From Candidatus Aminicenans sakinawicola JGI OTU-1 (GTDB taxonomy: Bacteria > Acidobacteriota > Aminicenantia > Aminicenantales > Aminicenantaceae), in the NCBI GenBank assembly GCA_000493965.1, contig AWNV01000001.1:41167-105166 (forward strand): a stretch of 64,000 nucleotides of DNA, read 5' to 3'. Each line of letters begins with the position of its first letter. Position 1 is the first letter of the stretch. Below are positions 19,373 through 53,900 of this stretch, one piece after another. Made by a program: the position numbers and the translations under genes. The notes under the pieces are model-generated. The model worked only from the letters and a program-made list of their open reading frames with translations. It searched no databases and was not told the origin of the DNA.

Positions 19373-19379
19373 AGGAAGT

Positions 19380-20471: not shown

Positions 20472-20474
20472 TTA

Positions 20475-20534: not shown

Positions 20535-20541
20535 AATAGTA

Positions 20542-29620: not shown

Positions 29621-30553
29621 ATGAAAATTGTGATTACTGGAGCTTTGGGGCATATAGGCTCAAAAGTTATCCGGGAAATCCCAGAAACTTTCCAAGAACC
29701 TGAAATTGTTATGATCGATAATATGTTGACTCAACGCTACTGTTCTTTGTTTAACTTACCTGCTCGCGGGAAATATTCTTTTATAGAAGCAGATGTATTA
29801 AATATGGAACTATGCCCCATTATTGAGGGAGCTGATTTTGTCCTGCATTTGGCTGCTATTACTGATGCCACAAGCAGTTTTAAAAACAAAGATCAGGTTG
29901 AAAATGTCAATTATAAAACAACAGTGAGGGTTTCCGAGGCTTGTAATGAAGTTGGATGCCCCATGATCCATTTTTCAACAACCAGCGTATATGGCACCCA
30001 ACAAAACGTTGTAGATGAAGATTGTTCTCCTGAGGAACTACGGCCACAAAGCCCCTATGCAGAGACAAAATTGAGGGAAGAACAATTTTTGCAAAATTTT
30101 GGCGCAGCAGAAAATTTGGATTTTTTAATATGTCGTTTTGGAACAATATGTGGGATTTCTCCTGGGATTCGCTTTCATACAGCGGTGAATAAATTCTGCT
30201 GGCAGGCTGTTATGAAGCAGCCGCTTTCTGTATGGCGGACAGCTTTATTTCAAAAGCGTCCCTATTTGGTTCTGAGTGATGCAGTGAAAGCCATTATATT
30301 TATAATTAAAAACAACTTGTTTGATAAAAGGATTTATAATGTCCTATCAGAAAATAGGACAGTACATTCCATTATTCAATGTATAAAACAATATATTCCC
30401 CAGTTAAATATTCAATATGTAAATGCCGAGATCATGAATCAGTTATCTTATGAAGTCTCAAACCTGCGCTTCAAAGAACAAGGATTTGAATTTTCAGGGA
30501 GTGTAGATAAAAGTATTCAAGAAACGATTCAATTACTTTTAACTGTGAAATAA
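29621..30553 (+). CDS. NAD-dependent epimerase/dehydratase (extended SDR) no. 3
   Basis: MKIVITGALGHIGSKV; YAETK. Confidence 0.7.
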   Translation: MKIVITGALGHIGSKVIREIPETFQEPEIVMIDNMLTQRYCSLFNLPARGKYSFIEADVLNMELCPIIEGADFVLHLAAITDATSSFKNKDQVENVNYKTTVRVSEACNEVGCPMIHFSTTSVYGTQQNVVDEDCSPEELRPQSPYAETKLREEQFLQNFGAAENLDFLICRFGTICGISPGIRFHTAVNKFCWQAVMKQPLSVWRTALFQKRPYLVLSDAVKAIIFIIKNNLFDKRIYNVLSENRTVHSIIQCIKQYIPQLNIQYVNAEIMNQLSYEVSNLRFKEQGFEFSGSVDKSIQETIQLLLTVK

Positions 30554-33186
30554 ACATCCGGTTTTCTATTCTTAATGGTTGTAATCAGAAATAGAAAAAA
30601 ATAAGATGCATATGATAGAGCCTTTAAATAGAATGTTATAAAATCAACCTTATGATAAAATTCTACAGTATGAAGACCTGGAGGTAAATTAATCCCCATG
30701 AAACCGCCTTCTAACACTTCTATCTTTCCAGGCACTTTATCTGTTCTTACTTTCCAATATTTATCATTGAACATTTCAAAATATAGAAATCTCCTAAAGC
30801 TTGTGTCTACTTTAATCCGCAGGTAATCTCCTCTAAATTCTTCAATTTTAATATCTCTCAATATTTTTTGGAAGCTTATAACTATTTTTTGCGGTCTATA
30901 ATCCCTGCTTAAGGAAATATTTAGAGTTTTTGCTTTCTCATAGTTTAGTTGGTACTGGCCTGCTTCGTAAAAATCATTATACCAAGTTTCTTTCAGAAGT
31001 TTATTATTGGACATAACCGAGATGTATATCCTGGTATCACTATAGGAATTAGTTGAATAATAATATGGAATTTGAGGATGAACCAGCTTATATATGTTTA
31101 TACCATACCTATCAAGGCTGCGGTGCAACTTAAATGCGGAAAAAGGGAAAGTCAAAACAGTCTCATCTTTTTCAGGATAGTAAATATGATCCAAAAAACT
31201 GCTTAAGTCAATATACTCTTGGTGGATTATTTTCTTATAGAAAGCATTCATAATTTCTTTATTTTTTACCAAACCGATTATCGGCTTATGCAATACCTTT
31301 TTTTTGATCTCTGCGTCAGGGATAGCATCTATACCTTTATAGAAAGGGAGCAGTTTTTTGTATGTTAGATCAACTAGATTCAATTCCGAAAACACCTTGC
31401 TGTATACAGTAAGATATCCCCTACATGTATCTATACGGTACTGCTTTGATAAATAACTAATAAAGGGTTCGAAGGAAGTATCTCGTGGCAACGAACTATC
31501 TTCCTTTCTTAATGGAGGAAGAGAGTATGGCTTCCAATAATCGACTTTGCGGTAGTAGTTACTTGTGTAATAGTAGTTCATCATTAGTTGAGAGAAGATG
31601 AGCATACCGAGAATCGGAAGTAGCATGTTTTTTCTCCATTTTTTATTTATGTTTGACTCTATAAAATACATGGCTAGAATCATCAGTATTAGCAACCCAA
31701 ATATCTGTATCAAAAAGGTGATCCAATTACCTGAATTCGAGCCGAGGATAATCAGAGTGAAGGAAGTGAAGCGATGTATATATCTCTGGGAGAGTGGACC
31801 TGCAAGGAAGGGAACAAGAATAAAAATAATCAATACCAAACTATATATTCTAGATTTCTTCGTTAAAATCTTCCCTGTTTTACGCAAATTATCAAAAATA
31901 CTATTTATCCCATATCCAATTAACACGATCAATGGTAATGCTGCATAATCAAATAAATAATTAATCCACCGTGTCTTTCTGAAAATTTCAAGTTGATAAA
32001 ACAATTTATATAGCCATGATTCACTTCCCATGCCGATATAAAATAACAATAGGAATAGAGACAAAAATAAATACTTTAATTTATTTTTTGAGAAGAGCAG
32101 GGCCATGCCAATAAAAAAAAGGCCTATGGATCCAATATAGGCACTCTGAGCCATTCTATCGTAGCCTTGTGTCTCTACAGGGTAGACATACTGCACTATG
32201 TCTTGTGGTTTGTAATCTACTGCCTCAGAAAGCAGAATGTATTGTCTATCGCTCCCTCCCCAACTCATGGGATTTGTATAAAAATCACTGAGGGATGGTA
32301 ACATTAAAAGCATCGGCAATGAGATTATGAGGAATGAAATAAAAAGGGAAAAAAAGTTAAAAGCATTGCCCTTGATAAAAATTAATGAATCCTTTGTTAT
32401 TTTTTTCAGAATACATACGAAATCATTAGATTTTTTGTATTCTATGATTCTCATAATGAGTAAGTAACTTATCAGGATGAAAACGAAAGTCGTGATATAA
32501 AAAAAGGCATGTATCATCATTCTACCGGAATACAATATCTGGCCAAGCAAAAAACCTTGAATAACATAAATATAAATAGAAGCCTTTTTATTTGATAAAA
32601 ATATTTTGATAAAAAATAGTGAAATCCAAGGAATAAACATAAATGCTGTTAATACATTATGTACTGCTTCAAGAAGGGAGAGTGACCAACCACTGAAGAT
32701 AACAAATAGAAGTGTACAAAACACAACCCTTTTATCTTTAATAAGATGCTTTAATAGAAAATAAAAACCACCTATGAAAATAAAGAAGTAACATAAGTAA
32801 ATAATATATATCTTATAAATTACGTGCACATCTAAATCGACTCCAATTGTCCGGAAAAAACGCATTATTTGCAGATAGCCCAAGAAGATAGGTGAATTGA
32901 TACAGTTTATATAAGAATACATAAGGAAGTTATGACCACCTATCACATAAGGTTCCCACGTTGGAATTTTTCCATAATTCATAAAATAACTTATTTGAAA
33001 TGAGAAAGTACCATAGTCATTGGTAGCATCAGCGAATTCAAGCCGATTGAAGTGATTTGAACCGATAAAGAAGTGATAGACAAGCAGTAAGAAAATAAGT
33101 GGAACAAGTTTCCTTGCGGTCTTGGTGAATTGCTCCTTAATTTTCCTCAATTTCTCTCGGCTGACATTTTTGGATGAGTGTATCAC
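30529..33186 (-). CDS. YfhO-family large polytopic membrane protein (GT-C-like)
   Basis: 885 aa with more than 15 TM helices; N-terminal ..YGKIPTWEPYVIGGHNFLMYS.. resembles the YfhO signature (PLWNPYIFGG.P); a large extracytoplasmic C-terminal domain. Confidence 0.55.
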   Translation of the reverse strand: MIHSSKNVSREKLRKIKEQFTKTARKLVPLIFLLLVYHFFIGSNHFNRLEFADATNDYGTFSFQISYFMNYGKIPTWEPYVIGGHNFLMYSYINCINSPIFLGYLQIMRFFRTIGVDLDVHVIYKIYIIYLCYFFIFIGGFYFLLKHLIKDKRVVFCTLLFVIFSGWSLSLLEAVHNVLTAFMFIPWISLFFIKIFLSNKKASIYIYVIQGFLLGQILYSGRMMIHAFFYITTFVFILISYLLIMRIIEYKKSNDFVCILKKITKDSLIFIKGNAFNFFSLFISFLIISLPMLLMLPSLSDFYTNPMSWGGSDRQYILLSEAVDYKPQDIVQYVYPVETQGYDRMAQSAYIGSIGLFFIGMALLFSKNKLKYLFLSLFLLLFYIGMGSESWLYKLFYQLEIFRKTRWINYLFDYAALPLIVLIGYGINSIFDNLRKTGKILTKKSRIYSLVLIIFILVPFLAGPLSQRYIHRFTSFTLIILGSNSGNWITFLIQIFGLLILMILAMYFIESNINKKWRKNMLLPILGMLIFSQLMMNYYYTSNYYRKVDYWKPYSLPPLRKEDSSLPRDTSFEPFISYLSKQYRIDTCRGYLTVYSKVFSELNLVDLTYKKLLPFYKGIDAIPDAEIKKKVLHKPIIGLVKNKEIMNAFYKKIIHQEYIDLSSFLDHIYYPEKDETVLTFPFSAFKLHRSLDRYGINIYKLVHPQIPYYYSTNSYSDTRIYISVMSNNKLLKETWYNDFYEAGQYQLNYEKAKTLNISLSRDYRPQKIVISFQKILRDIKIEEFRGDYLRIKVDTSFRRFLYFEMFNDKYWKVRTDKVPGKIEVLEGGFMGINLPPGLHTVEFYHKVDFITFYLKALSYASYFFLFLITTIKNRKPDVYFTVKSN

Positions 33187-36587: not shown

Positions 36588-37532
36588 ATGAAAATATTTA
36601 TTGCTGGAGGAGCTGGCTTTATTGGAAATTATACTACAGAATTTCTTTTAAGTGATAAAGAGAATAAAATCATAATCTTTGATAATTTTTCATCTCCTGG
36701 TTCGAGAAAGAACTTAGCCCATTTTAAAAACAATAACTTTTTAAAGATAATTGAAGGTGACATACAGAATTTGGAACTATTAGCCAAATCAATGAAAGGA
36801 TGCGAGAGAGTATATCATTATGCATCAAATCCAGATATAGCAAAAAGCATGACTCAGCCAGATTTAGATTTTTATCAAGGTACCCTTTTAACACAAAATA
36901 TTTTAGAGGCAATGCGAATCAATAATATAAAAATTATTATATATACTTCGGGAAGTGGAATTTACGGCGATCAGGGAGAGATGCCTATAGGGGAAGATTT
37001 TGCCCCTATGCTTCCTGTATCAACTTATGGAGCAAGTAAGCTAGCTTCTGAATCTCTAATTTCAGCTTATTGTCATATGTTCAATATGAATGCTTATGTT
37101 TTTCGGCCAGCAAACGTTGTCGGGAAGCGTCAAACTCATGGGGTTGCTTATGATTTTATAAAAAAGCTTAGAGCAAATCCTCACAAGTTAGAAATATTAG
37201 GTGATGGCTCTCAGAGTAAGTCTTATATTTACGTCAAAGATTTAATTGATGCTATCCATTATGTGATGGAAAATGATCATGATTTATTCAATTATTATAA
37301 TGTAGCTACTGATGATTATATTGATGTAAAAAGGATAGCTGAGATTGTAATTGAAGAGATGGGATTGAAAAATGTTAGTCTTTTATTTGGTCCTGAAAAA
37401 AGAGGCTGGAAAGGAGATGTCCCCATAGTCAGATTTAGTCTGGATAAAATTCATAAATTAGGCTGGTTTGCTAAGATGAGCAGTGAGGAAGCTGTAAGCC
37501 GCTCTGTTTCTGAAATGTTAAGCTGTACCTGA
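36588..37532 (+). CDS. NAD-dependent epimerase/dehydratase (UDP-hexose 4-epimerase-like SDR) no. 4
   Basis: MKIFIAGGAGFIGNYT; YGASK. Confidence 0.75.
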   Translation: MKIFIAGGAGFIGNYTTEFLLSDKENKIIIFDNFSSPGSRKNLAHFKNNNFLKIIEGDIQNLELLAKSMKGCERVYHYASNPDIAKSMTQPDLDFYQGTLLTQNILEAMRINNIKIIIYTSGSGIYGDQGEMPIGEDFAPMLPVSTYGASKLASESLISAYCHMFNMNAYVFRPANVVGKRQTHGVAYDFIKKLRANPHKLEILGDGSQSKSYIYVKDLIDAIHYVMENDHDLFNYYNVATDDYIDVKRIAEIVIEEMGLKNVSLLFGPEKRGWKGDVPIVRFSLDKIHKLGWFAKMSSEEAVSRSVSEMLSCT

Positions 37533-37540
37533 GAAAATAA

Positions 37541-38242
37541 ATGCAAGCAGTCATAATGGCAGGAGGATTGGCTACAAGGATTAGACCTCTAACCAATGAG
37601 ATTCCAAAGTCGTTAGTATCAATCGAAGAAAGACCTTTTTTACAGTATCAAATAGAATTACTTACTTGCTATGGCATAAAAGATATTATTCTGTGTGTGA
37701 GTTACATGGGTAAAAAAATTGAGAACTGTTTTGGTGATGGGAATAAATATAATGCAAGAATAATATATTCATATGAAAAAGAAAAGCTTTTAGGAACTGG
37801 GGGAGCTCTTAAATTAGCTGAAAAAAATCTTAAAGAAAATTTTTTTTTAATATGGGGAGATTCCTATGTTAATTTAAATTATAAAGAAATGCATGACTTT
37901 CATCTAAAGAATTCTGATAATTTCGATGTCACAATAGCAATTTTTTATAACATAAGAAATTATGATAAAAGTAATATTGTTTATAAGAGTGGAAAAATAA
38001 AAAAATATGAAAAAAATTCAACCGATAAAATGAAATATATCGATGCTGGAGTAATGGTTATAAATAAGAAGTTATTATTAAGAATACCTCCTGGAAAGGT
38101 TTTTCAAATAGAAAATTTATTTACTAAACTAGCAAAAGAAGAGAAAATAAAACCTTTTTTAATAAAAAAAAGATATTATGAGGTAGGGTCATTAAAAGGA
38201 TTAAATCAATTCACAAAATTCGTAAAGAGAAATCAAATTTAA
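37541..38242 (+). CDS. Sugar-1-phosphate nucleotidyltransferase (HddC/RmlA-like NTP_transferase)
   Basis: MQAVIMAGGLATRIRPLTNEIPKSLV N-terminal nucleotide-binding signature; 233 aa. Confidence 0.75.
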   Translation: MQAVIMAGGLATRIRPLTNEIPKSLVSIEERPFLQYQIELLTCYGIKDIILCVSYMGKKIENCFGDGNKYNARIIYSYEKEKLLGTGGALKLAEKNLKENFFLIWGDSYVNLNYKEMHDFHLKNSDNFDVTIAIFYNIRNYDKSNIVYKSGKIKKYEKNSTDKMKYIDAGVMVINKKLLLRIPPGKVFQIENLFTKLAKEEKIKPFLIKKRYYEVGSLKGLNQFTKFVKRNQI

Positions 38243-38262
38243 AAATCCGTTCAGTAAGAATA

Positions 38263-38340
38263 AAGTGCAAAGCTCGTGAAGCAAGATAAAGCTGCTAAGT
38301 GCAGTTTTACTTGCAGTAGTGTTATTTAGAGATTTAGATC
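38263..38340. repeat. Degenerate non-coding copy of the 5' end of the gene at 42769 (direct repeat, left copy)
   Basis: aagtgcaaagctcgtgaagcaagataaagctgctaagtgcagttttacttgcagtagtgttatttagag aligns with 42754-42836 (aatgtgcaaagcccttgaagcgatataaaac..gctgagtgcagttttacttgcagtagtgctatttaaag). The left copy carries a 9-bp deletion and an in-frame stop. Confidence 0.7.
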
Positions 38341-38351
38341 AGATTTTATAG

Positions 38352-39644
38352 ATGAGAATGAAGAGTAAAAAAGAAACTGCAATCTTAGGTGGGGGGCTGG
38401 CAGGTCTTTCAACCGCATATTTCATGAAGGATAACTGCATCGTTCTAGAAGAAAATAACGAATTAGGAGGGTTATGCAGAAGTTTTAAAAAAGATGGTTT
38501 TGTATATGATATAGGAGGACATATTCTTTTTTCTAAGAATAAAAAGATATTGTCAGAAATAGTAAGCTGGTTGAGAAATAATGTTCGAAGAAAGTACCGA
38601 AAGAATCAAGTCTGGTATAAGGATAGATTTGTGAAATATCCGTTTGAAAATGGACTTTATTCTTTAGATAAAAAAGAAATATATGATTGTTTAATAGGTT
38701 ATCTGATAAATGAGAATAAAGAACCTAAGAACTTAGAGGAATGGTGTAAATATACTTTTGGCAATGGAATAGCGGAAAAATACTTGATCCCTTATAACGA
38801 AAAGATTTGGAAACATGATTTAGAAGACATGTCAACTCATTGGGTTGAGAGAATTCCGAAGCCTCCAATGAAAGATATAATAAAATCTGCAATTGGAATA
38901 AGGACAGAAGGATACAGACATCAACTTTATTTTTATTACCCAAAAATTGGTGGAATAAATTCACTTATCAATTTTTTAAAAAATAATGTAAAGAATATAG
39001 AAAAAGGATTTAAAGTAACAGGAATAAAAAAGAAGAATAACAAATGGAAAGTTTCAAACGGTAGTAAAATAAAAGAATTTGATCGCATTATTTCTACAAT
39101 CCCAGTCTTTGATTTAATCAGTTGTTTAGATGGAGTTCCTGCTGAGGTAAAAGGAGCTCTCAAGAGACTAAATTATAATTCTTTGATTGTTGTCATGATT
39201 GGAATTAAAAATGAAACATTTAATAATAAAACAGCTATCTATATACCTGACCGTAATATTTTGCCTCATAGAGTATGCTTTATGAAATATTTCTCTAATA
39301 AAAATGCTCCTGAAGGCTGCTCTCATTTAATAGCTGAAATTACAGTTAAACCCAATGATGCTTTATTAAAGATAAATGATAGCACTATTGTCGAAAAAGT
39401 ATCCTGTCAATTGGAAAGAATTTGTGGATTTTCAAAGAATGAAATAATTTCTACTGATATACAAAGAATAAAATATGCATATGTGATATATGATAAAGAT
39501 TATTCAAAAAACACAGACATTGTTTTTGGTTATTTAAACGATCTTGGAATATATTGCACAGGAAGATTTGGTGCTTTTCAATACATCAACATGGACACTT
39601 GCGTAGAAATGTCAAAAAGATTAGTTCGATCTTTGAATAATTAG
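38352..39644 (+). CDS. UDP-galactopyranose-mutase-like FAD enzyme, paralog 2
   Basis: ILGGGLAGLSTAY..ELGGLCRSF..DIGGHILFSK and C-terminal CTGRFGAFQYINMDTCVEMSKRL (compare Glf GGRLAEYKYYDMHQVI). Confidence 0.65.
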   Translation: MRMKSKKETAILGGGLAGLSTAYFMKDNCIVLEENNELGGLCRSFKKDGFVYDIGGHILFSKNKKILSEIVSWLRNNVRRKYRKNQVWYKDRFVKYPFENGLYSLDKKEIYDCLIGYLINENKEPKNLEEWCKYTFGNGIAEKYLIPYNEKIWKHDLEDMSTHWVERIPKPPMKDIIKSAIGIRTEGYRHQLYFYYPKIGGINSLINFLKNNVKNIEKGFKVTGIKKKNNKWKVSNGSKIKEFDRIISTIPVFDLISCLDGVPAEVKGALKRLNYNSLIVVMIGIKNETFNNKTAIYIPDRNILPHRVCFMKYFSNKNAPEGCSHLIAEITVKPNDALLKINDSTIVEKVSCQLERICGFSKNEIISTDIQRIKYAYVIYDKDYSKNTDIVFGYLNDLGIYCTGRFGAFQYINMDTCVEMSKRLVRSLNN

Positions 39645-39692
39645 AAATTAAATAAAATCCGTGTAAGAAATTTTTCTTAACTGAGGGGTAAT

Positions 39693-40694
39693 ATGATTAT
39701 AACAAGAACACCTTTTAGATTTACTCTTGGAGGAGGAGGGACTGATCTACCATCATATTATTCAAAGTATGGAGGTTTTATTTTTGCAGCTGGAATCAAC
39801 AAGTATATGTTTATCAACGTTAACCGCACTATTGTGGATAATTTAGTTCGGGTTAAGTATTCTAAATCAGAGACAGTGACTCATAGAGACGAATTAAAGC
39901 ACCCCATTGCAAAGGAAGCAATGAGGATGACTGAAATTGAAAATTCTTTGGAAATTGTTTCGATAGCTGACATACCTGCTGGAACAGGCTTGGGTTCTTC
40001 AAGTTGTTATGCCGTAGGACTTCTCAATGCTCTTCACACCATGAAAAGGGAATACATTCCACTCCATGAGCTTGCTGAGGAAGCTTGTGACCTTGAGATA
40101 AATAGACTTGGGGAACCTATTGGAAAACAGGATCAATACATGGCTGCCTTCGGGGGGTTGACAGTATTGGACATCAAAAAGGATGGCAATGTGTATGTTA
40201 GGTCAGCAAAATTAGAGGATTCATCCATGGATGATTTAAACAGGAATCTCCTCATGTTTTACACCAACACAACTCGCAGTGCAAATAAGATACTTTCAGA
40301 GCAGAGTAAAGGGATAAAAGAAAAAAAGGAGAATGTTGTAAAAAGTATGCATTATATAAAAGAGATTGGATATAAGATGCTTGAGGCACTTGAAGGTGGT
40401 AATATCACTGATGTAGGACTACTGTTTGATAAACACTGGCAGTATAAGAAGATGATGTCTACTAAGATTTCAAATCCCTGGTTCGATGAGATTTATGAGA
40501 CTGCCAAGCAAAATGGCGCCCTGGGTGGGAAGATTTCTGGGGCTGGCGGGGGTGGTTTCTTTCTCTTTTATACGGAAGAAAATCATAGTAAATTAAGAGA
40601 AGCCATGAGAAAGTTGAATTTAAGAGAGATGCGGTATAGATTTGATTTAGAAGGAACAAAGGTAATTGTGAATTTTATGGAAGGTGTAAGGTAA
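39693..40694 (+). CDS. GHMP-family sugar kinase (HddA-like D-glycero-D-manno-heptose 7-phosphate kinase or galactokinase-like)
   Basis: MIITRTPFRFTLGGGGTDLPSYY N-terminus, PAGTGLGSSS ATP-binding motif and a C-terminal GAGGGGF motif. Confidence 0.75.
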   Translation: MIITRTPFRFTLGGGGTDLPSYYSKYGGFIFAAGINKYMFINVNRTIVDNLVRVKYSKSETVTHRDELKHPIAKEAMRMTEIENSLEIVSIADIPAGTGLGSSSCYAVGLLNALHTMKREYIPLHELAEEACDLEINRLGEPIGKQDQYMAAFGGLTVLDIKKDGNVYVRSAKLEDSSMDDLNRNLLMFYTNTTRSANKILSEQSKGIKEKKENVVKSMHYIKEIGYKMLEALEGGNITDVGLLFDKHWQYKKMMSTKISNPWFDEIYETAKQNGALGGKISGAGGGGFFLFYTEENHSKLREAMRKLNLREMRYRFDLEGTKVIVNFMEGVR

Positions 40695-40702
40695 TTTTTC
40701 AA

Positions 40703-41884
40703 ATGAAAAAGCGGATAGGGATTTTAACTGGTGGCGGTGATGTCCAAACTCTCAATTCTGTTATAGCTTCCGCTTACAATGCTGCTAATACCTTAAACAT
40801 TGAATTGGTAGGAATTATAAAAGGGTGGAAAGGAGCACTAGAGGCGAATTATGTTGATCTATCAAATCTTTCCATTGACCCAAAAATTGGAGGGTCAATC
40901 TTAAAGCACTCACGGGTTAACATAAGTAAAGTTGAAAATGGATACGAAAAGGTTTTGGATAATTTTAAAAGAAACAATATAACAGGTTTAATTGTTATTG
41001 GAGGAGAAGACACTCTATCTAATGCGTTTTTGATTAAACTAATTCCCCAAGTTCTTATTTCAAAGACAATAGATAATGATGTGGGTCAATTTGAATATAA
41101 TGATAAAGAATTCAGATTAGAGAATATTATTAACTATTTTACTTTAGGCTTCCCGACTGCGGCTGAAAAGATAACCTCTTTTGTTAGCTTGAAAGAAGGT
41201 CTGAGAACTACAGCTTATTCCCATGAAAGAATTATTATACTGGAGGCGATGGGAATGCATTCAGGTTGGCTTGCTCTTTCTTCGGGAATGGGTTACCCAG
41301 ATTTTATCATTATCCCTGAATTTCCATTGAAGTATGAATTGTTTCTAGACAAGGTTATAAAAAAATATGAATATCAAAGACATCTTATCATTGTTGTGGC
41401 TGAAGGCGCAAAAAGGCAAAATGGATCATATGTTTGTGCAGAAAAAGATGAAATTGAAGATTTTGACCATCCTCGTTTTGGTGGGTCGGCATATGCTCTA
41501 AGAGATCAATTAAAAAAAGATTTAGTAAAACATTTCAATCTAAGGAATATTAACGCTGTGAATCCTTCGTACTTATATCGCTCAGGAACCCCAAATGAGC
41601 TTGATCAATTTTGGGCAAAAAGGCTGGGAGAAAGAGCAGTCAAATTGTTAGCTGATGGAATGAATGAGACAAGTTTTCTTGCTATTCAAAAAAATAAATC
41701 AGGATTCAGAGTTAAAAATTTCCCTTTATCAAATTTCAACTCTATTGATGAATTACATAGGTTTGTTGATAATAGACTTTATGACCCGGAAGAATTTCAA
41801 ATTACTGAAAATGGTAAGAAGTACTTAAGGGAAATTGTTGAAGAAATTCCGGTTGAGAAATCATATGGAATAAAAGAGGGATAG
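40703..41884 (+). CDS. PfkA-family phosphofructokinase-like sugar-phosphate kinase
   Basis: KRIGILTGGGDVQTLNSVI (compare PFK IGVLTSGGDAPGMNAAI), ..GLIVIGGEDTLSNA..; 393 aa. Confidence 0.7.
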   Translation: MKKRIGILTGGGDVQTLNSVIASAYNAANTLNIELVGIIKGWKGALEANYVDLSNLSIDPKIGGSILKHSRVNISKVENGYEKVLDNFKRNNITGLIVIGGEDTLSNAFLIKLIPQVLISKTIDNDVGQFEYNDKEFRLENIINYFTLGFPTAAEKITSFVSLKEGLRTTAYSHERIIILEAMGMHSGWLALSSGMGYPDFIIIPEFPLKYELFLDKVIKKYEYQRHLIIVVAEGAKRQNGSYVCAEKDEIEDFDHPRFGGSAYALRDQLKKDLVKHFNLRNINAVNPSYLYRSGTPNELDQFWAKRLGERAVKLLADGMNETSFLAIQKNKSGFRVKNFPLSNFNSIDELHRFVDNRLYDPEEFQITENGKKYLREIVEEIPVEKSYGIKEG

Positions 41885-41929
41885 AAATTAAGATGAAATG
41901 GAAATCAATATGATAACAAAGGAGGAACA

Positions 41930-42622
41930 ATGGCCATATTTTTAGACACAGGTAAAATTGAAGAAATCAAAAAGTACATGAATATGGGCGTTCTAAGAGG
42001 AGTAACGACCAATCCGACTATTCTTTTAAAATCTGGAGTAAAAGGAGGAAAAAAGGCTATTAAGAATAGATCAATTGAAATTGCGAATATAATTAAACCC
42101 TATCCTCTATCAGTTGAGGTTACGACGAATGAGCCACAAGAAATGATTGAACAGGCGAGAGAGTTTTCTGAGTGGGCAGGAAATATTAATGTAAAAATAA
42201 CAGTCCATGGCCCTAACGGTGAACTTGATAACCTAGAAGTGGCGCACTTACTAGAGACCAAATACGATATTCGTGTCAATGTTACAGCCATGATGAGTGC
42301 GCAGCAATGCTTTTTAGCTGCTTTAGCTGGGGCCACATATGTCTCTTTATTCGGGGGAAGGGTGAACAACATGGGTTATAATGTTTGCATGGAAATAAAA
42401 AAACTTCGTAAGGTTCTTGACAATTTTGGCCTTAAGGCAAAAATTATTATAGGCTCAACACGGGAAGTTTTAAACGTTATAGAGTGGCTTGAGGCAGGTG
42501 CTCACATTGTTACTGTTATGCCTGAATTTCTTAAAGGAATGATTATTCATCCTTACAGCAAAGAAACGGTGCAGATGTTTCTTGATGATGCGAAAAAAGC
42601 TGAGGAGATGCTTAAGTCCTGA
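41930..42622 (+). CDS. Short transaldolase / fructose-6-phosphate aldolase family (TalC/FSA-like)
   Basis: MAIFLDTGKIEEIKKYMNMGVLRGVTTNPTIL, a near-canonical N-terminus of the 220-aa transaldolase/FSA family. Confidence 0.8.
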   Translation: MAIFLDTGKIEEIKKYMNMGVLRGVTTNPTILLKSGVKGGKKAIKNRSIEIANIIKPYPLSVEVTTNEPQEMIEQAREFSEWAGNINVKITVHGPNGELDNLEVAHLLETKYDIRVNVTAMMSAQQCFLAALAGATYVSLFGGRVNNMGYNVCMEIKKLRKVLDNFGLKAKIIIGSTREVLNVIEWLEAGAHIVTVMPEFLKGMIIHPYSKETVQMFLDDAKKAEEMLKS

Positions 42623-42768
42623 GATGTCCTTGATAACAGTCTGTTCCTGAGTAAAAAATCAAGCGAACTACTTTGATATAGCATGTTAATGAAGATGCAA
42701 AAGTACTTAAAAAAAAGATCGTATTTGGCCTTGACAATTAGACTACTTCAAAATAATGTGCAAAGCCC

Positions 42769-43734
42769 TTGAAGCGATATAAAACTATAGGAATCCTGCT
42801 GAGTGCAGTTTTACTTGCAGTAGTGCTATTTAAAGCAGATTTGGGCGAAGTGGCTGCGGCACTGCGAGGAGCAGATTACCGATATCTGCCATTAGCAGTG
42901 ACCATTTATCTGACCAGCTTCCTTCTCCGCTCATGGCGGTGGGGGGTCCTTTTGAGGCCAGTTAAGCCTGGTATAGACTTTGGGTGCATATTCTCCACGA
43001 TTATGATCGGCTTGACAGCCAACAATCTCTTGCCAGCCAGGATAGGGGAATTAGTGCGAGCTTATCTTATCGGTAAAAGGGAATCCATCAGCAAGAGCGC
43101 TTCTCTGGCAACTATAGTGGTGGAGCGAATCCTCGATGGTTTCACTTTACTTGCCTTTCTTTTTGCCGGTATACTGCTTATCGCCAATCCTTTGGTAGCT
43201 CTGGATTTTGGACTGTATGTGTTGGCTGCTTTTATAGTGGTTCTGGTCGTGTTGGTTATTATGACTTTCCGAGGAGCTATGTGCTTGACCTGTATAGAGA
43301 AAGCCACAAGGATTTTGCCTGCCAAGTTCTCGGCATTCGTAATAAGATTATTCAAATCATTCTTAGAAGGACTGGGATCGCTGCGAGATGCGCGACTGAC
43401 CTTAAAAGGGCTGGCACTGTCTTTGGGAGTATGGACTATTGAAGGCTTAGTATACTATATTATCCTTTGTTCGTTTGGAATTCCCCTTTCTGTCTACGCG
43501 ACAATGGTATTGCTTGCCGTGGTCAATGTAGGAGCTGTACTGCCATCGGCACCGGGCGCACTTGGTACGTTTCAATTCTTCTGTGTCTTAGGGCTTGGCT
43601 TTTTTGCTGTGGATAAGAGTACTGCACTGGCCTTATCGGTGGTCTTGCAGAGTGTTATGTGGCTTCCGGTAACTCTGTTGGGGCTAGGGTTTCTCTGGCG
43701 AATCCCGGCTGAACTGCGGTTTCGTATAAAATAG
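42769..43734 (+). CDS. Flippase-like membrane protein (lysylphosphatidylglycerol-synthase TM region / UPF0104 family)
   Basis: 8-TM protein, ..FLLRSWRWGVLLRP..LLPARIGELVRAYL..; TTG start; about 50% GC against about 32% in the flanking genes. Confidence 0.6.
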   Translation: MKRYKTIGILLSAVLLAVVLFKADLGEVAAALRGADYRYLPLAVTIYLTSFLLRSWRWGVLLRPVKPGIDFGCIFSTIMIGLTANNLLPARIGELVRAYLIGKRESISKSASLATIVVERILDGFTLLAFLFAGILLIANPLVALDFGLYVLAAFIVVLVVLVIMTFRGAMCLTCIEKATRILPAKFSAFVIRLFKSFLEGLGSLRDARLTLKGLALSLGVWTIEGLVYYIILCSFGIPLSVYATMVLLAVVNVGAVLPSAPGALGTFQFFCVLGLGFFAVDKSTALALSVVLQSVMWLPVTLLGLGFLWRIPAELRFRIK

Positions 43735-43861: not shown

Positions 43862-45919
43862 ATGCTTTTTAGAAACTCTCGTATTCGAGCGTTTTTCTTG
43901 TTTTTCGCTGTAGTCTATTTAGTAATATTCTACTTTTTCTATTTAAGGTATGTCCCTCTGGTAACGCCTTTTCAGATAATACTTATTCCGATTTTATTTA
44001 TTCTTTTTGTTTTAACAATGACAAACATTCAATGGGGGATTCTGTTTTTTATCTTTGCCTTTCCATTAATAAATAATCTCCCCTATTTTTTTGGAATTTA
44101 CGGCCATATTCCACATGCTCCTACTGCTTTAGTTTTATTTTTGGCTTTTTTTGCAGGGTGGTTAGTTCATTCTGTTTTTTCTAAATCAGAGATTTCTTTT
44201 GAACATCCAATTTTTAAGCCCTTAATTTTATTATCACTGCTTATTTTTGTGTCCGGAATTATCACTTTCCTTAGATATTCAAACTTTTATCCTTTTCTAA
44301 GTGATTACGTATACGAGCTCATTACTAACACGAATGGAGTAACCGCAGGGGGAGCCATAATGAGTTCGGTGTTTTTCTCCCTGAATTACTTAACAGGATT
44401 TGCTTTCTTTTTTATTCTTTTGAACACGGTTAAAGAAAAGGAATTTATAATAAAAATATTAGTGGTTTTATTAATAAGCACTTCTATTTCCATTGCTTTT
44501 GGTTTCTTCCAGCATTACAAAGATATAGAAATTGCAAATAATCCTATCAGTTTTACTCAAGGATTTATAAATGGGACATTTAAAGATGCTATGTCTTTCG
44601 GGGGCTATTTAGCTGTTTTAATTCCCGTGATATTATCAATGATTTTTTTCTTTAAGGGTACGCTTAGAGTTTTTTCCTTTTTAGTATTCATATCTGCAGT
44701 ATTTATCCTTCCTAATACCGGTTCAAGAAGCGGCATTGTAGCTTTGGCTGTAAGTTTTGTGTTTTTTCTGGGTTTTTATTTAATAAGCCTGAAAAAACAA
44801 AAATCTTTCTCTTTAAAGAAAATAATGAGTTTTGGTGCAGCCTTTTTACTTATTTTTTCTGTTATTATATCGATTCTATTATTTTCAAAAGGTTCTATAG
44901 TGTATAAAAGATTAGATGAATTGTGGGTGTCATATAAAGAGGGCGGATTGGAGAAAGCATTAGCTGAACGAAGTGCAAGCCAATGGAAAATGGCAGCCAA
45001 AATGATTAAGGACTATCCATTTACAGGAGTAGGAATCGGGGCATTTATAATTGAGCTTCCTAATTATGCAGAAACAGATCAAATTCCTCTAAGAACCACG
45101 GATTCTGCAGAAAATTATTTTCTTCAAGTTGGATCAGAGCTGGGAATAATAGGTCTTTTTTTCGCGTTGTGGATTTTTTGGTTAATTTTCAAACAGATAA
45201 AAAAAGGATTTGATAAATATTTATCTCAGGACAGATGGAAGTATATTCGGATCGGATTTTTCTGCGGGATAATTTCTATGTTCATGATTTTCTTTGTACA
45301 TACTTATATTGGAAGTTATGAAATTAAGTATACTTTCTGGCTCTTGGTTGGATCGCTTTTTATTATGAATAGAAATGAAGCTGAGCCTGAAAGCAGAATT
45401 CATTTAAGTAAAAAATTTAAAATTTTTAGCCTGGCGCTAGTTCTAATCTTCAGCGGGCTGCATTTATGGAATTCAACCCGCTCTTTATCTTTGAAAAGCC
45501 GGACAAAACTGTATGATCTACAGCAAAATTTCGGTCTCTATCAGTTGGAGAAAAACCAGGAGGGAAGGGAATTCAGATGGACGCGAGGATATGGTGGATG
45601 GACCATTAAAATTGAAAAGCCGGTAATTGAGATTCCAATGCTAGCTTCTCATCCGGATATCGAAAAAAATCCACTCAGAGTCAAGATCTATTTGATAAAA
45701 AATTTCTTTAAAGAGAAAAGACTGCTAGATGAGGTTGTTTTGACAGAAAACTCATGGAAAACTTATGAATATTATATTCCAGAGGAAGTCAATCGTCAGG
45801 CTATTTTGCTGTTCAAAGTTAGCAGAACCTGGAATCCTCTGAAAACATTTGGAACTCCTGATCCAAGGAATTTGGGGATAGCTGTGGGGAAGATAAACTT
45901 TAAAACACTAAATCATTAA
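43862..45919 (+). CDS. O-antigen ligase-like membrane protein with a C-terminal extracytoplasmic domain (third Wzy_C-type protein)
   Basis: 685 aa; the polytopic N-terminal 470 aa carry ..LPNTGSRSGIVALAVSF.. (Wzy_C); a soluble C-terminal domain of about 190 aa. Confidence 0.6.
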   Translation: MLFRNSRIRAFFLFFAVVYLVIFYFFYLRYVPLVTPFQIILIPILFILFVLTMTNIQWGILFFIFAFPLINNLPYFFGIYGHIPHAPTALVLFLAFFAGWLVHSVFSKSEISFEHPIFKPLILLSLLIFVSGIITFLRYSNFYPFLSDYVYELITNTNGVTAGGAIMSSVFFSLNYLTGFAFFFILLNTVKEKEFIIKILVVLLISTSISIAFGFFQHYKDIEIANNPISFTQGFINGTFKDAMSFGGYLAVLIPVILSMIFFFKGTLRVFSFLVFISAVFILPNTGSRSGIVALAVSFVFFLGFYLISLKKQKSFSLKKIMSFGAAFLLIFSVIISILLFSKGSIVYKRLDELWVSYKEGGLEKALAERSASQWKMAAKMIKDYPFTGVGIGAFIIELPNYAETDQIPLRTTDSAENYFLQVGSELGIIGLFFALWIFWLIFKQIKKGFDKYLSQDRWKYIRIGFFCGIISMFMIFFVHTYIGSYEIKYTFWLLVGSLFIMNRNEAEPESRIHLSKKFKIFSLALVLIFSGLHLWNSTRSLSLKSRTKLYDLQQNFGLYQLEKNQEGREFRWTRGYGGWTIKIEKPVIEIPMLASHPDIEKNPLRVKIYLIKNFFKEKRLLDEVVLTENSWKTYEYYIPEEVNRQAILLFKVSRTWNPLKTFGTPDPRNLGIAVGKINFKTLNH

Positions 45920-48069: not shown

Positions 48070-48708
48070 ATGAAATGGGAAGAATTTGTTAAAAAGATGG
48101 GTAATTTAGCTGTTATTGATACAGAGAATCTTCTTGCAGGTAAGGGAGACGATAATTCTGTAAAGGTGCAGATCAGCCGCTGGCTAAAAGCAGGACGTCT
48201 GATTCAGCTTAAACGAGGCATTTATGTTTTTGCCGAACAATATACAAGGATTAATGCTTTTGAGCCTTATATTGCGTGGGTATTAAAGAATCCTTCCTAT
48301 ATCAGTGTGGAGAAAGCATTGGAATACTATGATTTAATTCCGGAAGCAGTGCCTGTATATTGTTCAGTCACTACTAAAAGAGCAGGGGAATTTACTTCTG
48401 AGGTGGGGACTTTTTCATATAGGCATATTAAAAAAGAGCTTTTTTGGGGATATAAATCAATTACTTTAAATAAGCAAACCGGTTTTATTGCGCATTCGGA
48501 AAAGGCGCTTCTTGATTTAATATATTTAAAACATATAAAACCAACATTAGGATATCTAGAAGAATTACGATTACAGAATGTGGAAAAGTTGAATATCGAT
48601 ACATTATTTGAATATGCACAGAGATTTGAAAAACCTAAAATTCTACGCTCTGCAGAAGTGATTAAAGAGTATATCCTTTCTTATAAGAGAGAGGAGAAAA
48701 CGTTATGA
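48070..48708 (+). CDS. AbiEi-family antitoxin / transcriptional regulator (type IV toxin-antitoxin system)
   Basis: 212 aa; N-terminal wHTH-like region ..VKVQISRWLKAGRLIQLKRGIYVF.. typical of AbiEi; 4-bp overlap with the downstream toxin gene. Confidence 0.6.
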   Translation: MKWEEFVKKMGNLAVIDTENLLAGKGDDNSVKVQISRWLKAGRLIQLKRGIYVFAEQYTRINAFEPYIAWVLKNPSYISVEKALEYYDLIPEAVPVYCSVTTKRAGEFTSEVGTFSYRHIKKELFWGYKSITLNKQTGFIAHSEKALLDLIYLKHIKPTLGYLEELRLQNVEKLNIDTLFEYAQRFEKPKILRSAEVIKEYILSYKREEKTL

Positions 48709-49511
48709 AGGATTATTTGTTAGAGCTAACTGCATCTAAAAGAGGCTTTAATGCAAAATTGAATAGTATGCGAGAATATCTTCAAGCGTATATCTTGAAA
48801 ATATTTCATGATCAAGGGCTGTTCCGAACTACAGCTTTCTTGGGGGGAAGCGCCTTGCGATTTTTACATGGACTTCCGCGTTTTTCAGAAAATTTAGATT
48901 TTTCACTTACAGTAAACAAAACCTATTCATTTGTTGATATCATCAAGAAAGTTGAGAAGGAATTTGAGTCGATGGGCTATAAGGTTTCTATTAAATATAA
49001 TGATGAGAAGATAGTTTATTATGCTTTCGTGAAGTTTGAAGGCTTGATGTATGAAGCAGGAATTTCGAATCTTCCTGATCAGAATTTTACAATTAAGATT
49101 GAGATTGATACCAATCCTCCTGAAGGAGCTGTAACAGAGACAAGAGTAGTCAATAAATATTTCCCTATTGCCTTTTTATCGTATGAACTTACGTCACTGT
49201 TTTCAGGAAAATTACATGCTTTGTTAAGCAGAAAGTATACAAAGGGAAGAGATTTCTTTGATTTGGGATGGTATATTTCACGTTGGAAAGCTATCTGTCC
49301 TAACATTTCATTGCTTCATAACGCACTCAAGCAAACCGATTATAAAGGTGAATTGCCATTAGAGGATAATTGGAGGAAGTATATTTATGCGGTAGTAGAA
49401 AAAGAGGATTGGAAGAAAGTTAAGGAAGATGTAGAGAACTTTCTCGAAAATCCTTCGGATTTGGATATTTTTACAAAGGAAAATGTGCTCAATCTTGTTA
49501 GGGGAATATAA
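48705..49511 (+). CDS. AbiEii/AbiGii-family nucleotidyltransferase toxin (DUF1814)
   Basis: ..FLGGSALRFLHGLPRFSENLDFSL.. matches the DUF1814 hallmark (GGTAL..RFSEDxDF). Confidence 0.7.
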   Translation: MKDYLLELTASKRGFNAKLNSMREYLQAYILKIFHDQGLFRTTAFLGGSALRFLHGLPRFSENLDFSLTVNKTYSFVDIIKKVEKEFESMGYKVSIKYNDEKIVYYAFVKFEGLMYEAGISNLPDQNFTIKIEIDTNPPEGAVTETRVVNKYFPIAFLSYELTSLFSGKLHALLSRKYTKGRDFFDLGWYISRWKAICPNISLLHNALKQTDYKGELPLEDNWRKYIYAVVEKEDWKKVKEDVENFLENPSDLDIFTKENVLNLVRGI

Positions 49512-53899: not shown

Positions 53900-53900
53900 A

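What the first reader, a model, noticed from the sequence alone, without database searches (positions are those of the whole stretch)
37541..42622. Central-metabolism-like sugar-phosphate module (NDP-sugar pyrophosphorylase, Glf-like enzyme, HddA-like GHMP kinase, PfkA-family kinase, short transaldolase/FSA) embedded in the glycan locus
Transaldolase/FSA and a PFK-family kinase are not normally part of polysaccharide clusters. The transaldolase could supply sedoheptulose-7-P or another ketose phosphate. The PFK-like and GHMP kinases could then phosphorylate it. The HddC-like nucleotidyltransferase could activate it, and the adjacent Glf-like enzyme could ring-contract it. Together with the possible GT9-like gene at 17038, this points to a dedicated NDP-heptose or other rare-sugar supply route, possibly heptofuranose. 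The 4-gene core (38352-42622) is also bracketed by a duplicated gene-start fragment; see the separate finding.
Basis: inference. Interest (0 to 1): 0.75.

Follow-up and report, generated by a model that had tools for sequence, protein, structure and literature searches.

The report
Heptose-sugar module with a recruited phosphofructokinase
A surface-glycan gene cluster carries its own pathway for an activated seven-carbon sugar, in which a glycolysis-type enzyme (phosphofructokinase family) appears to have replaced the phosphatase normally used, a role not described for that family in the literature searched.

Summary
All five genes are real, at the stated coordinates, and the family labels hold. 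They are an HddC/ManC-like nucleotidyltransferase, a eukaryote-type UDP-galactopyranose-mutase-like flavoenzyme, an HddA-like GHMP kinase, a PfkA-family enzyme with the PPi-type signature, and a short transaldolase that is TAL-type, not FSA-type.

The kinase, PFK and TAL recur together inside polysaccharide loci. Those whose records carry names are Aminicenantes, Syntrophaceae, Thermodesulfobacteriota and a "Proteobacteria" MAG. They usually sit next to a GmhA-like isomerase. None of 79 generic PFK control loci has such neighbours.

Orthologous modules in Ca. Kryptonium, Poribacteria and a third contig have a GmhB-like HAD phosphatase exactly where the PFK sits, and never both.

Best reading: this is an NDP-heptose, probably heptofuranose, supply module. 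TAL feeds sedoheptulose-7-P. The PFK-like enzyme stands in for GmhB, removing the 7-phosphate of heptose-1,7-bisphosphate, probably onto Pi to give PPi. That step is inferred, not shown.

The window's variant lacks the isomerase. The "duplicated gene start" is a decayed remnant of a flippase-like gene.

The parts
36588..37532 (+). NAD-dependent SDR (epimerase/reductase type). It is a co-conserved member of the window-type ('type B') module.
   Evidence: Pfam Epimerase 8e-47. It is 80-94% identical and syntenic in L009, L010 and L011. It has TSGSGIYG where 4,6-dehydratases have the Asp-Glu pair, and it has YGASK (the motif reading rests on my own knowledge).
37541..38242 (+). Sugar-1-phosphate nucleotidyltransferase, HddC/ManC/MurU-like.
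   Evidence: Pfam NTP_transferase 1e-20. NCBIfam best hits are MurU (119 bits) and HddC (104 bits), both below cutoff. PDB best hits are 7whr, the entries 6jq8/5xhw ('putative 6-deoxy-D-mannoheptose pathway protein', 6e-20) and mannose-1-phosphate guanyltransferase beta (7d72). It is only 26-36% identical to the transferases of type-A modules.
38259..38331 (+). Decayed remnant of the leader and first ~25 codons of an LPG_synthase_TM (flippase-like) gene, with an 11-nt deletion.
   Evidence: Direct repeat with 42752-42835; blastn E 6e-14. In L010 an intact LPG_synthase_TM gene occupies exactly this position, between the NTP_transferase and the flavoenzyme.
38352..39644 (+). FAD enzyme resembling eukaryote-type UDP-galactopyranose mutase; predicted NDP-heptopyranose/furanose mutase.
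   Evidence: PDB best hits are T. cruzi UGM 4dsg (4e-35 over residues 10-411) and A. fumigatus UGM (4e-30). It keeps the GGH loop, the Arg in WVER, the Arg in PHRV, and the Tyr in AYV and GRFGAFQY (alignment; residue roles from my own knowledge). There is no Pfam GLF hit.
39693..40694 (+). HddA-like GHMP kinase; predicted D-glycero-D-manno-heptose-7-P 1-kinase.
   Evidence: PDB best hits are 3k85 (deposited as D-glycero-D-manno-heptose 1-phosphate kinase, 4e-44), 4n3o (putative heptose 7-phosphate kinase) and 4usk ('putative sugar kinase'; I recall it as WcbL). NCBIfam HddA scores 171 bits against a cutoff of 600. It is 70-79% identical to the kinases of modules that contain GmhA-like and GmhB-like genes.
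40703..41884 (+). PfkA-family phosphotransferase with the PPi-type signature and a lineage-specific Arg171-to-Met change; predicted functional replacement of GmhB.
   Evidence: Pfam PFK 3e-54. GGEDTLSN gives Asp104 and Asn108; KTIDND gives Lys124; MGM replaces MGR. R72, R162, E222 and R252 are kept. Met171 occurs in 13/13 subfamily loci and 0/80 generic PFKs. A HAD phosphatase occupies its slot in L104, L105 and L107.
41930..42622 (+). Short (subfamily-5 type) transaldolase; predicted sedoheptulose-7-P supply.
   Evidence: Pfam TAL_FSA 2e-37. Best PDB hit is T. acidophilum TAL 3s0c (2e-32). It keeps Asp6, Asn28, Glu60, Lys86, Asn108/Thr110, Ser130, Phe132 (TAL-type, not the Tyr of FSA), Arg135 and Arg169. 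In L005 and L104 it is replaced by a TIGR02134 transaldolase scoring above cutoff.
42769..43734 (+). Intact LPG_synthase_TM / TIGR00374 flippase-like membrane protein. This is context; its start is the source of the duplicated fragment.
   Evidence: Pfam LPG_synthase_TM 2e-53 and TIGR00374 106 bits, above cutoff. It is 72% identical to the L010 gene that lies upstream of the flavoenzyme.
43862..45919 (+). Wzy_C (O-antigen ligase/polymerase-like) membrane protein. This is context.
   Evidence: Pfam Wzy_C 1e-18. A Wzy_C gene also lies downstream of the module in L003, L005, L007 and L011.

Best explanation
Region 36588-42622 is a dedicated precursor module that turns central sugar phosphates into a nucleotide-activated heptose for the surrounding glycan locus.

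Proposed steps:
1. The transaldolase makes sedoheptulose-7-P from fructose-6-P and erythrose-4-P.
2. A GmhA-type isomerase converts it to D-glycero-D-manno-heptose-7-P. This gene is present in most related modules but missing from this window, so it is presumably encoded elsewhere.
3. The HddA-like kinase adds the anomeric phosphate, giving heptose-1,7-bisphosphate.
4. The PFK-family enzyme takes off the 7-phosphate, doing the job of the missing GmhB phosphatase. It probably runs the readily reversible PPi-PFK chemistry backwards (sugar-bisP + Pi -> sugar-1-P + PPi), so the phosphate bond is conserved rather than hydrolysed.
5. The HddC-like transferase makes NDP-heptose.
6. The SDR and the UGM-like flavoenzyme tailor it, the latter probably contracting the ring to a heptofuranose.

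Shown here: gene identities, catalytic residues, co-conservation, and the mutually exclusive HAD/PFK slot. Inferred: every substrate, the direction and phosphate acceptor of the PFK step, and the nucleotide used.

My confidence is about 0.8 that this is an NDP-heptose module and about 0.5 that the PFK replaces GmhB. The figure given is for the whole statement.
For: 1. Homology. The kinase's best solved relatives are heptose kinases. The transferase is nearest HddC and ManC. The flavoenzyme matches eukaryote-type UGM over its full length, with key residues kept. The TAL machinery is complete and of TAL type.

2. Co-conservation. All 17 loci whose PFK is at least 46% identical to the window's carry at least one of TAL, SIS_2 (GmhA-like) or the GHMP kinase wherever the contig extends. 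None of 79 generic PFK loci (28-33% identity) does. All contexts are polysaccharide loci.

3. The SIS_2 partners are GmhA-like.

4. Slot swap. L104 (Ca. Kryptonium) and L105 (Poribacteria) run GFO-HAD-SIS_2-TAL, where L001 and L003 run GFO-PFK-SIS_2-TAL. L107 runs SIS_2-HAD-TAL, where L005 and L106 run SIS_2-PFK-TAL. The HAD proteins are GmhB-like. The flanking genes are orthologous: kinase 78%; SIS_2, GFO and SDR 54-69%. tblastn finds no HAD homologue in any PFK locus and no PFK in any HAD locus, and the profile scan finds none in the loci it covered.

5. PPi-type signature. Asp104, Lys124 and a non-Gly residue at 108 fit the rule given in PMC12203962. The same review describes PPi-PFKs as readily reversible.

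6. Arg171, which contacts the transferred phosphate in canonical PFK (my own knowledge), is Met in 13/13 subfamily members and in 0/80 controls. This points to a changed substrate.

7. Two different TAL clades fill the same slot, so transaldolase activity itself is what is selected.
Against: 1. No biochemistry exists for any member; the PFK role rests on gene-neighbourhood logic.
2. Only three HAD-type loci were sampled.
3. GmhB can be encoded outside the cluster, as in C. jejuni (PMC10680097). Its absence within 10 kb therefore does not prove absence from the genome.
4. The window variant also lacks the isomerase, so unlinked genes are needed anyway.
5. All five enzymes score below NCBIfam equivalog cutoffs.
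6. PPi-PFKs are known to phosphorylate sedoheptulose-7-P. That gives a simpler, known activity on the same carbon skeleton.
7. Removing a 7-phosphate from an aldoheptose has never been reported for this fold.
8. The flavoenzyme has no Pfam GLF hit.
Confidence: 0.5

Rival explanations
1. Precursor-supply reading. The PFK-like enzyme is an ordinary reversible PPi-PFK acting on sedoheptulose-7-P and sedoheptulose-1,7-bisphosphate (or F6P and FBP). Together with TAL it only balances or boosts the S7P pool for heptose synthesis. The 7-phosphatase (GmhB) is encoded elsewhere in the genome.
For: S7P phosphorylation is a documented side activity or physiological role of PPi-PFKs (PMC12203962 and PMC7029132). 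The catalytic TIDND motif and the phosphate-binding R162 and R252 are intact. GmhB lies outside the capsule cluster in C. jejuni. The window module already depends on an unlinked isomerase.
Against: The known SBP route exists where transaldolase is absent, yet here a TAL is in the same module. This reading does not explain why a GmhB-like HAD occupies the same slot in orthologous modules and never co-occurs with the PFK. It does not explain the subfamily-specific loss of Arg171. TAL is lost or truncated in L010 and L106 while the PFK is kept, so the two are not an obligate pair.
Confidence: 0.25
2. Different-product reading. The module makes a sugar other than D-glycero-D-manno-heptose, for example an octose from TAL acting on a pentose phosphate, or a glycan sugar that keeps a phosphate. 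The PFK would add a phosphate in the forward direction that is retained or used later.
For: Every enzyme is below its equivalog cutoff. The GmhA-like partners are very divergent, at 42-53 bits against a cutoff of 209. Arg171-to-Met suggests a non-canonical substrate. The window variant has no isomerase at all.
Against: The closest characterised relatives of the kinase, isomerase, phosphatase and transferase are all from the heptose pathway. A forward kinase would not be expected to alternate with a phosphatase at the same position.
Confidence: 0.12
3. Housekeeping reading. The PFK and TAL are ordinary glycolysis and pentose-phosphate genes that happen to lie inside the glycan locus.
For: Both have complete catalytic residues and belong to central-metabolism families.
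Against: The association is specific to this PFK subfamily (17 of 17 loci against 0 of 79) and is kept across phyla inside polysaccharide loci. No glycolytic neighbours were seen. In the window the genes are packed 8-110 nt apart on one strand.
Confidence: 0.04

Closest known systems
[quoted passage not shown] C. jejuni is described in PMC10680097; Aneurinibacillus thermoaerophilus, Yersinia pseudotuberculosis and Burkholderia pseudomallei WcbL/M/N are from my own knowledge.
   Same: The kinase and transferase are of the HddA and HddC types. Related modules add a GmhA-like isomerase, and sister modules add a GmhB-like phosphatase. The module sits in a glycan locus, with SDR tailoring enzymes alongside.
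   Different: There is no GmhB; a PfkA-family enzyme sits in its place. A dedicated transaldolase is part of the module. The window variant also lacks GmhA. All members are below the curated equivalog scores.
PPi-dependent phosphofructokinases with sedoheptulose-7-P kinase activity (Entamoeba histolytica and cellulolytic clostridia; PMC12203962, PMC7029132)
   Same: Same PFK fold. The Asp104, Lys124 and non-Gly108 donor signature is present. The insertion and C-terminal extension of the PRK14072-type enzymes (3k2q, 3hno) are shared. The chemistry is readily reversible, and the family has an affinity for seven-carbon sugar phosphates.
   Different: Those enzymes work in central metabolism and substitute for a missing transaldolase. 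This subfamily is confined to glycan loci, sits in a module that also encodes a transaldolase, has Met in place of the conserved Arg171, and alternates with a phosphatase.
Predicted GDP-6-deoxy-heptopyranose/furanose mutases of C. jejuni HS:10 and HS:41 (PMC10680097), and eukaryote-type UDP-galactopyranose mutases (4dsg, 3ute)
   Same: A flavin mutase-like gene sits inside a heptose module. The GGH loop and the diphosphate-binding Arg and Tyr residues are kept.
   Different: By sequence it is closest to eukaryote-type UGMs rather than bacterial Glf, with no Pfam GLF hit. No 4,6-dehydratase signature is seen in the adjacent SDR, so the substrate may not be a 6-deoxy-heptose. Three paralogues occur elsewhere in the window.
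HAD-type sister module found here in Ca. Kryptonium thompsonii (L104), Poribacteria (L105) and contig L107
   Same: The kinase is orthologous (78% identical). SIS_2, GFO/MocA, adh_short, SDR, transferase and TAL follow the same order.
   Different: It carries a GmhB-like HAD-IIIA phosphatase where the window lineage carries the PFK-family enzyme, and it has no UGM-like gene.

Membership tests
[quoted passage not shown] | GmhA-type sedoheptulose-7-P isomerase in the module | tested here: not met
   No SIS or SIS_2 ORF in the 64-kb window or in type-B loci, by Pfam and by a profile of 8 module SIS_2 proteins. It is present in every type-A relative whose contig covers that position.
[quoted passage not shown] | HddA-type GHMP kinase (heptose-7-P 1-kinase) | tested here: inconclusive
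   The best PDB relatives are heptose kinases, at E 4e-44. The NCBIfam HddA equivalog scores 171 bits against a cutoff of 600.
[quoted passage not shown] | GmhB HAD-IIIA 7-phosphatase | tested here: not met
   No HAD ORF in the window or in any PFK-type locus. A GmhB-like HAD is present at the PFK position in L104, L105 and L107.
[quoted passage not shown] | HddC-type heptose-1-P guanylyltransferase | tested here: inconclusive
   NCBIfam HddC 104 bits against a cutoff of 300, and MurU 119 against 250. PDB hits include 6jq8/5xhw ('putative 6-deoxy-D-mannoheptose pathway protein') at 6e-20. The nucleotide specificity is unknown.
PfkA-family phosphofructokinase (PF00365) | PFK domain with catalytic TIDND, Arg72, Arg162, Glu222 and Arg252 | tested here: met
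   Pfam 184.7 bits against a cutoff of 30.9. The residues are seen in the alignments.
PfkA-family phosphofructokinase (PF00365) | Conserved MGR motif (Arg171 at the transferred phosphate) | tested here: not met
   MGM in the window and in 13/13 subfamily loci. Arg in 77/80 generic PFKs and in the solved PFKs whose alignments were printed.
PPi-dependent PFK | Donor signature: GGDD-type Asp104, Lys124 in KTIDND, non-Gly at 108 (rule as given in PMC12203962) | tested here: met
   GGEDTLSN and SKTIDND. Position 103 is Glu or Asp. The review warns that Lys124 alone is not decisive.
PPi-dependent PFK | F6P + PPi to FBP activity in central metabolism | not testable with these tools
   No NCBIfam PFK model reaches its cutoff; the best is 201.9 against 253. 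The genomic context is glycan synthesis, not glycolysis.
Transaldolase, short subfamily (TAL/FSA, PF00923) | Schiff-base Lys plus the Asp/Glu/Thr catalytic set, with Phe (TAL) rather than Tyr (FSA) at the discriminating site | tested here: met
   Alignment to T. acidophilum TAL 3s0c shows D6, E60, K86, T110, F132 and R135 conserved (residue roles from my own knowledge). TIGR00875 scores 151.6 against a cutoff of 245.95, so it is below the equivalog threshold.
UDP-galactopyranose mutase (flavin pyranose/furanose mutase) | Full-length similarity, with the GGH histidine loop and the diphosphate-binding Arg and Tyr residues | tested here: met
   4dsg at E 4e-35 over residues 10-411. GGH, WVER, PHRV, AYV and GRFGAFQY align with the UGM residues (roles from my own knowledge).
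UDP-galactopyranose mutase (flavin pyranose/furanose mutase) | Pfam GLF domain or TIGR00031 above cutoff | tested here: not met
   No PF03275 hit. TIGR00031 scores 26.8 against a cutoff of 303.75.

The most novel reading that the evidence does not exclude
A clade of PfkA-fold enzymes has left glycolysis and become a step of nucleotide-sugar biosynthesis. It replaces the hydrolytic phosphatase GmhB by transferring the 7-phosphate of heptose-1,7-bisphosphate to Pi (or ADP). The ATP spent by the anomeric kinase is thereby recovered as PPi (or ATP). From my own knowledge, the named lineages that carry it (Aminicenantes, Syntrophaceae, Thermodesulfobacteriota) are energy-limited anaerobes. This would be a fourth physiological role for the PFK family and a case of a 'phosphorolytic phosphatase' displacing a hydrolase.
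Probability: 0.4. Interest if true: 0.8.

Novelty: new variant of a known kind. Interest (0 to 1): 0.66.

Why it matters
The NDP-heptose pathway is textbook, and it is a drug and vaccine target in pathogens. Its four enzymes are generally treated as fixed. This work gives comparative evidence for three things:
- a widespread, highly conserved environmental version that brings its own transaldolase;
- a sub-lineage in which a phosphofructokinase-family protein sits where the bisphosphate phosphatase should be;
- a further variant with a UGM-like mutase, which suggests heptofuranose in the glycans of uncultured phyla.

If the PFK really removes the 7-phosphate, the known functional range of one of the best-studied enzyme families grows. 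It would also show an energy-saving design in PPi-economy anaerobes, and would explain hundreds of "6-phosphofructokinase" annotations in metagenomes that are probably wrong. The hypothesis can be tested directly with purified proteins and commercially accessible substrates.

Tried and rejected
1. A reference-genome scan with the single PFK sequence returned only ~30%-identical PFKs from Asgard archaea and Alistipes.

It returned mostly generic Lys124-type PFKs and only 6 subfamily loci. I used the generic ones as negative controls.

3. I first took Tyr249 and the 'HPRF' insertion motif to be subfamily-specific. One search showed both are common in generic PPi-type PFKs, and one search shows the insertion in 3k2q. 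I dropped them; only Arg171-to-Met (and enrichment of Glu103) is specific.

4. I looked for GmhA, GmhB or HAD across the whole window with Pfam, tblastn and custom profiles and found none.

5. The proposed GT9 heptosyltransferase at 17038 has no Pfam hit.

6. Literature searches for any PFK or TAL link to heptose clusters found nothing relevant.

7. I considered FSA rather than TAL and rejected it on the Phe/Glu/Thr pattern, and because bona fide TIGR02134 transaldolases fill the same slot.

8. I considered a mobile-element insertion of the 4-gene core. There is no transposase or inverted repeat at its borders, and the repeat is better explained as a remnant of a relocated gene.

9. I did not run structure prediction, because the tools return no model coordinates for active-site geometry.

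Full report
**Observation**

Profile searches confirm each family:
- NTP_transferase, 1e-20
- Amino_oxidase with NAD_binding_8, 1e-17
- GHMP kinase N and C domains
- PFK, 3e-54
- TAL_FSA, 2e-37

Every NCBIfam hit is below its curated cutoff. Examples are HddA 171 against 600, HddC 104 against 300, fsa_talC_mipB 152 against 246, and the best PFK model 202 against 253. These are therefore divergent members, not textbook orthologues.

The surroundings from 2.3 to 46 kb form one large glycan locus. It holds many GT4 and GT2 transferases, a Wzx-like flippase, three Wzy_C proteins, Bac_transf, a UDP-GlcNAc 2-epimerase, a C-methyltransferase, DegT, an RmlC-like protein and several SDRs. More glycan genes follow up to 63 kb.

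**Individual enzymes**

*Kinase.* Its best solved relatives are 3k85 (deposited as D-glycero-D-manno-heptose 1-phosphate kinase, 4e-44), 4n3o (putative heptose 7-phosphate kinase) and 4usk ("putative sugar kinase"; I recall it as B. pseudomallei WcbL).

*Transferase.* It is nearest 7whr (a nucleotidyl transferase family protein), the entries 6jq8/5xhw ("putative 6-deoxy-D-mannoheptose pathway protein"; I recall them as HddC) and mannose-1-phosphate guanyltransferases. It is not near RmlA or GlmU.

*Flavoenzyme.* It aligns over residues 10-411 with T. cruzi UDP-galactopyranose mutase (4e-35) and with the A. fumigatus enzyme. It keeps the GGH histidine loop, the two diphosphate-binding arginines and two tyrosines (residue roles from my own knowledge). 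It has no Pfam GLF hit.

*Transaldolase.* It aligns end to end with T. acidophilum TAL. It keeps Asp6, Glu60, the Schiff-base Lys86, Thr110 and Arg135, and has Phe at the position where FSA has Tyr. It is therefore TAL-type.

*PFK.* It keeps TIDND, Arg72, Arg162, Glu222 and Arg252. It reads GGEDTLSN and KTIDND, giving Asp104, Asn108 and Lys124. That is the PPi-donor signature as summarised in PMC12203962. It has MGM where every other aligned PFK has MGR.

**Comparative genomics**

The PFK has many close homologues, at 58-93% identity. The few that carry a source name are Aminicenantes (five), Syntrophaceae (one) and "Proteobacteria" (one).

In every context examined it lies in a polysaccharide locus. 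The 'type A' architecture is: SDR, NTP_transferase, GHMP kinase, sometimes a UDPG dehydrogenase, adh_short, GFO/MocA, PFK, SIS_2, TAL. It occurs in two Aminicenantes lineages, Syntrophaceae, a proteobacterial MAG and Thermodesulfobacteriota. The SIS_2 proteins are divergent GmhA-like sedoheptulose-7-P isomerases.

The window and its nearest relatives (L009-L011, PFK 83-93% identical) have a 'type B' architecture: SDR, NTP_transferase, UGM-like flavoenzyme, kinase, PFK, TAL, with no SIS_2.

Across architectures the identities to the window are:
- kinase, 70-79%
- PFK, 57-73%
- TAL, 75-83% (except where a different TAL clade fills the slot: L005, 28-29%)
- transferase and SDR, only 23-36%

Type B is therefore a mosaic built around the conserved trio.

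The association is specific. All 17 subfamily loci carry trio or SIS_2 neighbours wherever the contig allows, and none of 79 generic PFK loci does.

In the Syntrophaceae and Kryptonium loci the TAL slot is filled by a different clade, TIGR02134, scoring above its cutoff. Transaldolase activity itself is therefore what is selected. TAL is missing in L010 and truncated in L106 while the PFK stays.

**The key result**

The 333-aa kinase family is 75-80% conserved across phyla. Three further loci carry the same module with no PFK and with a 175-183-aa GmhB-like HAD-IIIA phosphatase. It has an FLDRDG motif, and its best named hits are heptose-1,7-bisphosphate 7-phosphatase.

| Gene order | HAD-type loci | PFK-type loci |
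|---|---|---|
| GFO - [HAD or PFK] - SIS_2 - TAL | L104 (Ca. Kryptonium), L105 (Poribacteria) | L001, L003 |
| SIS_2 - [HAD or PFK] - TAL | L107 | L005, L106 |

The HAD sits precisely where the PFK sits, in two different gene orders. tblastn finds no HAD homologue in any PFK locus and no PFK in any HAD locus. Custom profile searches of the window, the type-B loci and a subset of the others give the same negative result.

This is the pattern expected for non-orthologous displacement of GmhB by the PFK-family enzyme.

The subfamily is nested in a PPi-type PFK lineage. That lineage shares the insertion and the C-terminal extension of PRK14072-type enzymes. The sister clade keeps MGR. Met171 is found in 13/13 subfamily loci and in none of 80 controls.

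**Mechanism proposed**

1. TAL makes S7P from F6P and E4P.
2. A GmhA-like isomerase, unlinked in the window, gives heptose-7-P.
3. The HddA-like kinase gives heptose-1,7-bisphosphate.
4. The PFK-like enzyme removes the 7-phosphate by transfer to Pi, yielding PPi, or conceivably to ADP.
5. The transferase gives NDP-heptose.
6. The SDR and the UGM-like mutase tailor it, plausibly to a heptofuranose.

There is precedent for the last step in the predicted mutases of C. jejuni HS:10 and HS:41 (PMC10680097).

Three points are inference, not test:
- In FBP and in heptose-1,7-bisphosphate the two phosphate-bearing carbons are separated by the same number of bonds through the ring oxygen, so the bisphosphate could fit a PFK product site.
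- PPi-PFK reactions are near equilibrium and readily reversible.
- The named carriers are anaerobes with a PPi economy, whereas the HAD carriers named here are not (my own knowledge).

**Rivals**

The main alternative is that the PFK is an ordinary S7P/SBP (or F6P/FBP) PPi-PFK helping precursor supply, with GmhB encoded elsewhere. This is plausible because S7P kinase activity is known and because GmhB lies outside the cluster in C. jejuni.

Against it:
- The SBP route is known where transaldolase is absent, yet here TAL is in the same module.
- It does not explain the HAD/PFK alternation.
- It does not explain the loss of Arg171.

A non-heptose or phosphorylated product, and a housekeeping role, are less likely.

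**The repeat**

The segment 38259-38331 is a decayed copy, with an 11-nt deletion, of the leader and first ~25 codons of the flippase-like gene at 42769. In L010 an intact orthologue (72% identical) sits at exactly that upstream position. The fragment is therefore a remnant of a gene that now lies downstream of the module, not a transposition footprint.

**Provenance**

Identical proteins occur on about 30 public contigs. These include NCBI assembly GCA_000398225.1 (contig ASLH01000002.1) and several metagenome contigs with the same gene order. The nearest named relatives are Aminicenantes.

**Novelty**

No paper in the searchable library links a PfkA-family enzyme or a transaldolase to heptose glycan clusters. 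The 2025 PFK-superfamily review lists only glycolysis, gluconeogenesis and the SBP bypass as physiological roles.

I rate this a new variant of a known pathway, with a possibly new function for the PFK fold.

**Limits**

- The evidence is purely computational.
- Only three HAD-type loci were sampled.
- Whole genomes could not be searched for unlinked gmhA or gmhB.
- The missing isomerase in type B is unexplained.

Noticed in passing
window 23400-24749, 52592-53899, 53760-55199 (plus 38352-39644): The window holds four paralogous amine-oxidase/UGM-like flavoproteins, 22-44% identical to each other. The one at 23400 has a weak Pfam GLF hit. The pair at 52592 and 53760 are adjacent, overlapping ORFs, 44% identical. 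That is unusually many putative pyranose/furanose mutases for one glycan region.
   Followed up: partly
window 815-2227 (-): A DDE transposase (DUF772, DDE_Tnp_1 families) sits at the left edge of the glycan locus.
   Followed up: no
window 30529-33186 (-): An 885-aa ORF with no Pfam hit lies on the opposite strand in the middle of the + strand glycan genes. It is conserved in the near-identical contigs L099-L103; L098 shows an 817-aa ORF at that position.
   Followed up: no
window 48070-49511: A 212-aa ORF with no Pfam hit is followed by an AbiEii-family toxin gene. This is a likely toxin-antitoxin or abortive-infection pair wedged between two blocks of glycan genes.
   Followed up: no
L099 (GCA_000398225.1, ASLH01000002.1) 15318-21182, compared with window 21911-27522: In the NCBI assembly, the block RmlC-like / DegT / C-methyltransferase / amine-oxidase-GLF lies inverted directly downstream of the Wzy_C gene. 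In the window it is about 16-20 kb upstream on the + strand. This is either a strain-level rearrangement of the glycan locus or an assembly difference.
   Followed up: no
L003 12038-12361, L007 7278-7631 and 12063-12425, L105 7356-7742, L106 3185-3562, L107 9431-9808: Small PF05635 ('23S rRNA intervening sequence protein', bAvd-like four-helix bundle) genes are repeatedly inserted inside or next to the heptose modules of unrelated phyla. Toxin-antitoxin genes (HEPN/MNT, PemK, RelE, MazE, PIN) also flank many modules.
   Followed up: no
   Followed up: partly
L010 11194-11444 and L106 10311-10574: The transaldolase is absent from one type-B locus, where an LptD_2 gene follows the PFK. It is reduced to an 87-aa fragment in the Thermodesulfobacteriota locus. 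The PFK is intact in both, so the TAL seems dispensable and the PFK does not.
   Followed up: partly
type-A loci L001 6739-8034 and L003 6739-8028: Some type-A modules contain a nucleotide-sugar dehydrogenase. All examined type-A modules that cover those positions contain a GFO/MocA oxidoreductase plus an adh_short reductase. This hints that the final type-A product is an oxidised or epimerised heptose (possibly a hepturonic acid) different from the window's product.
   Followed up: no
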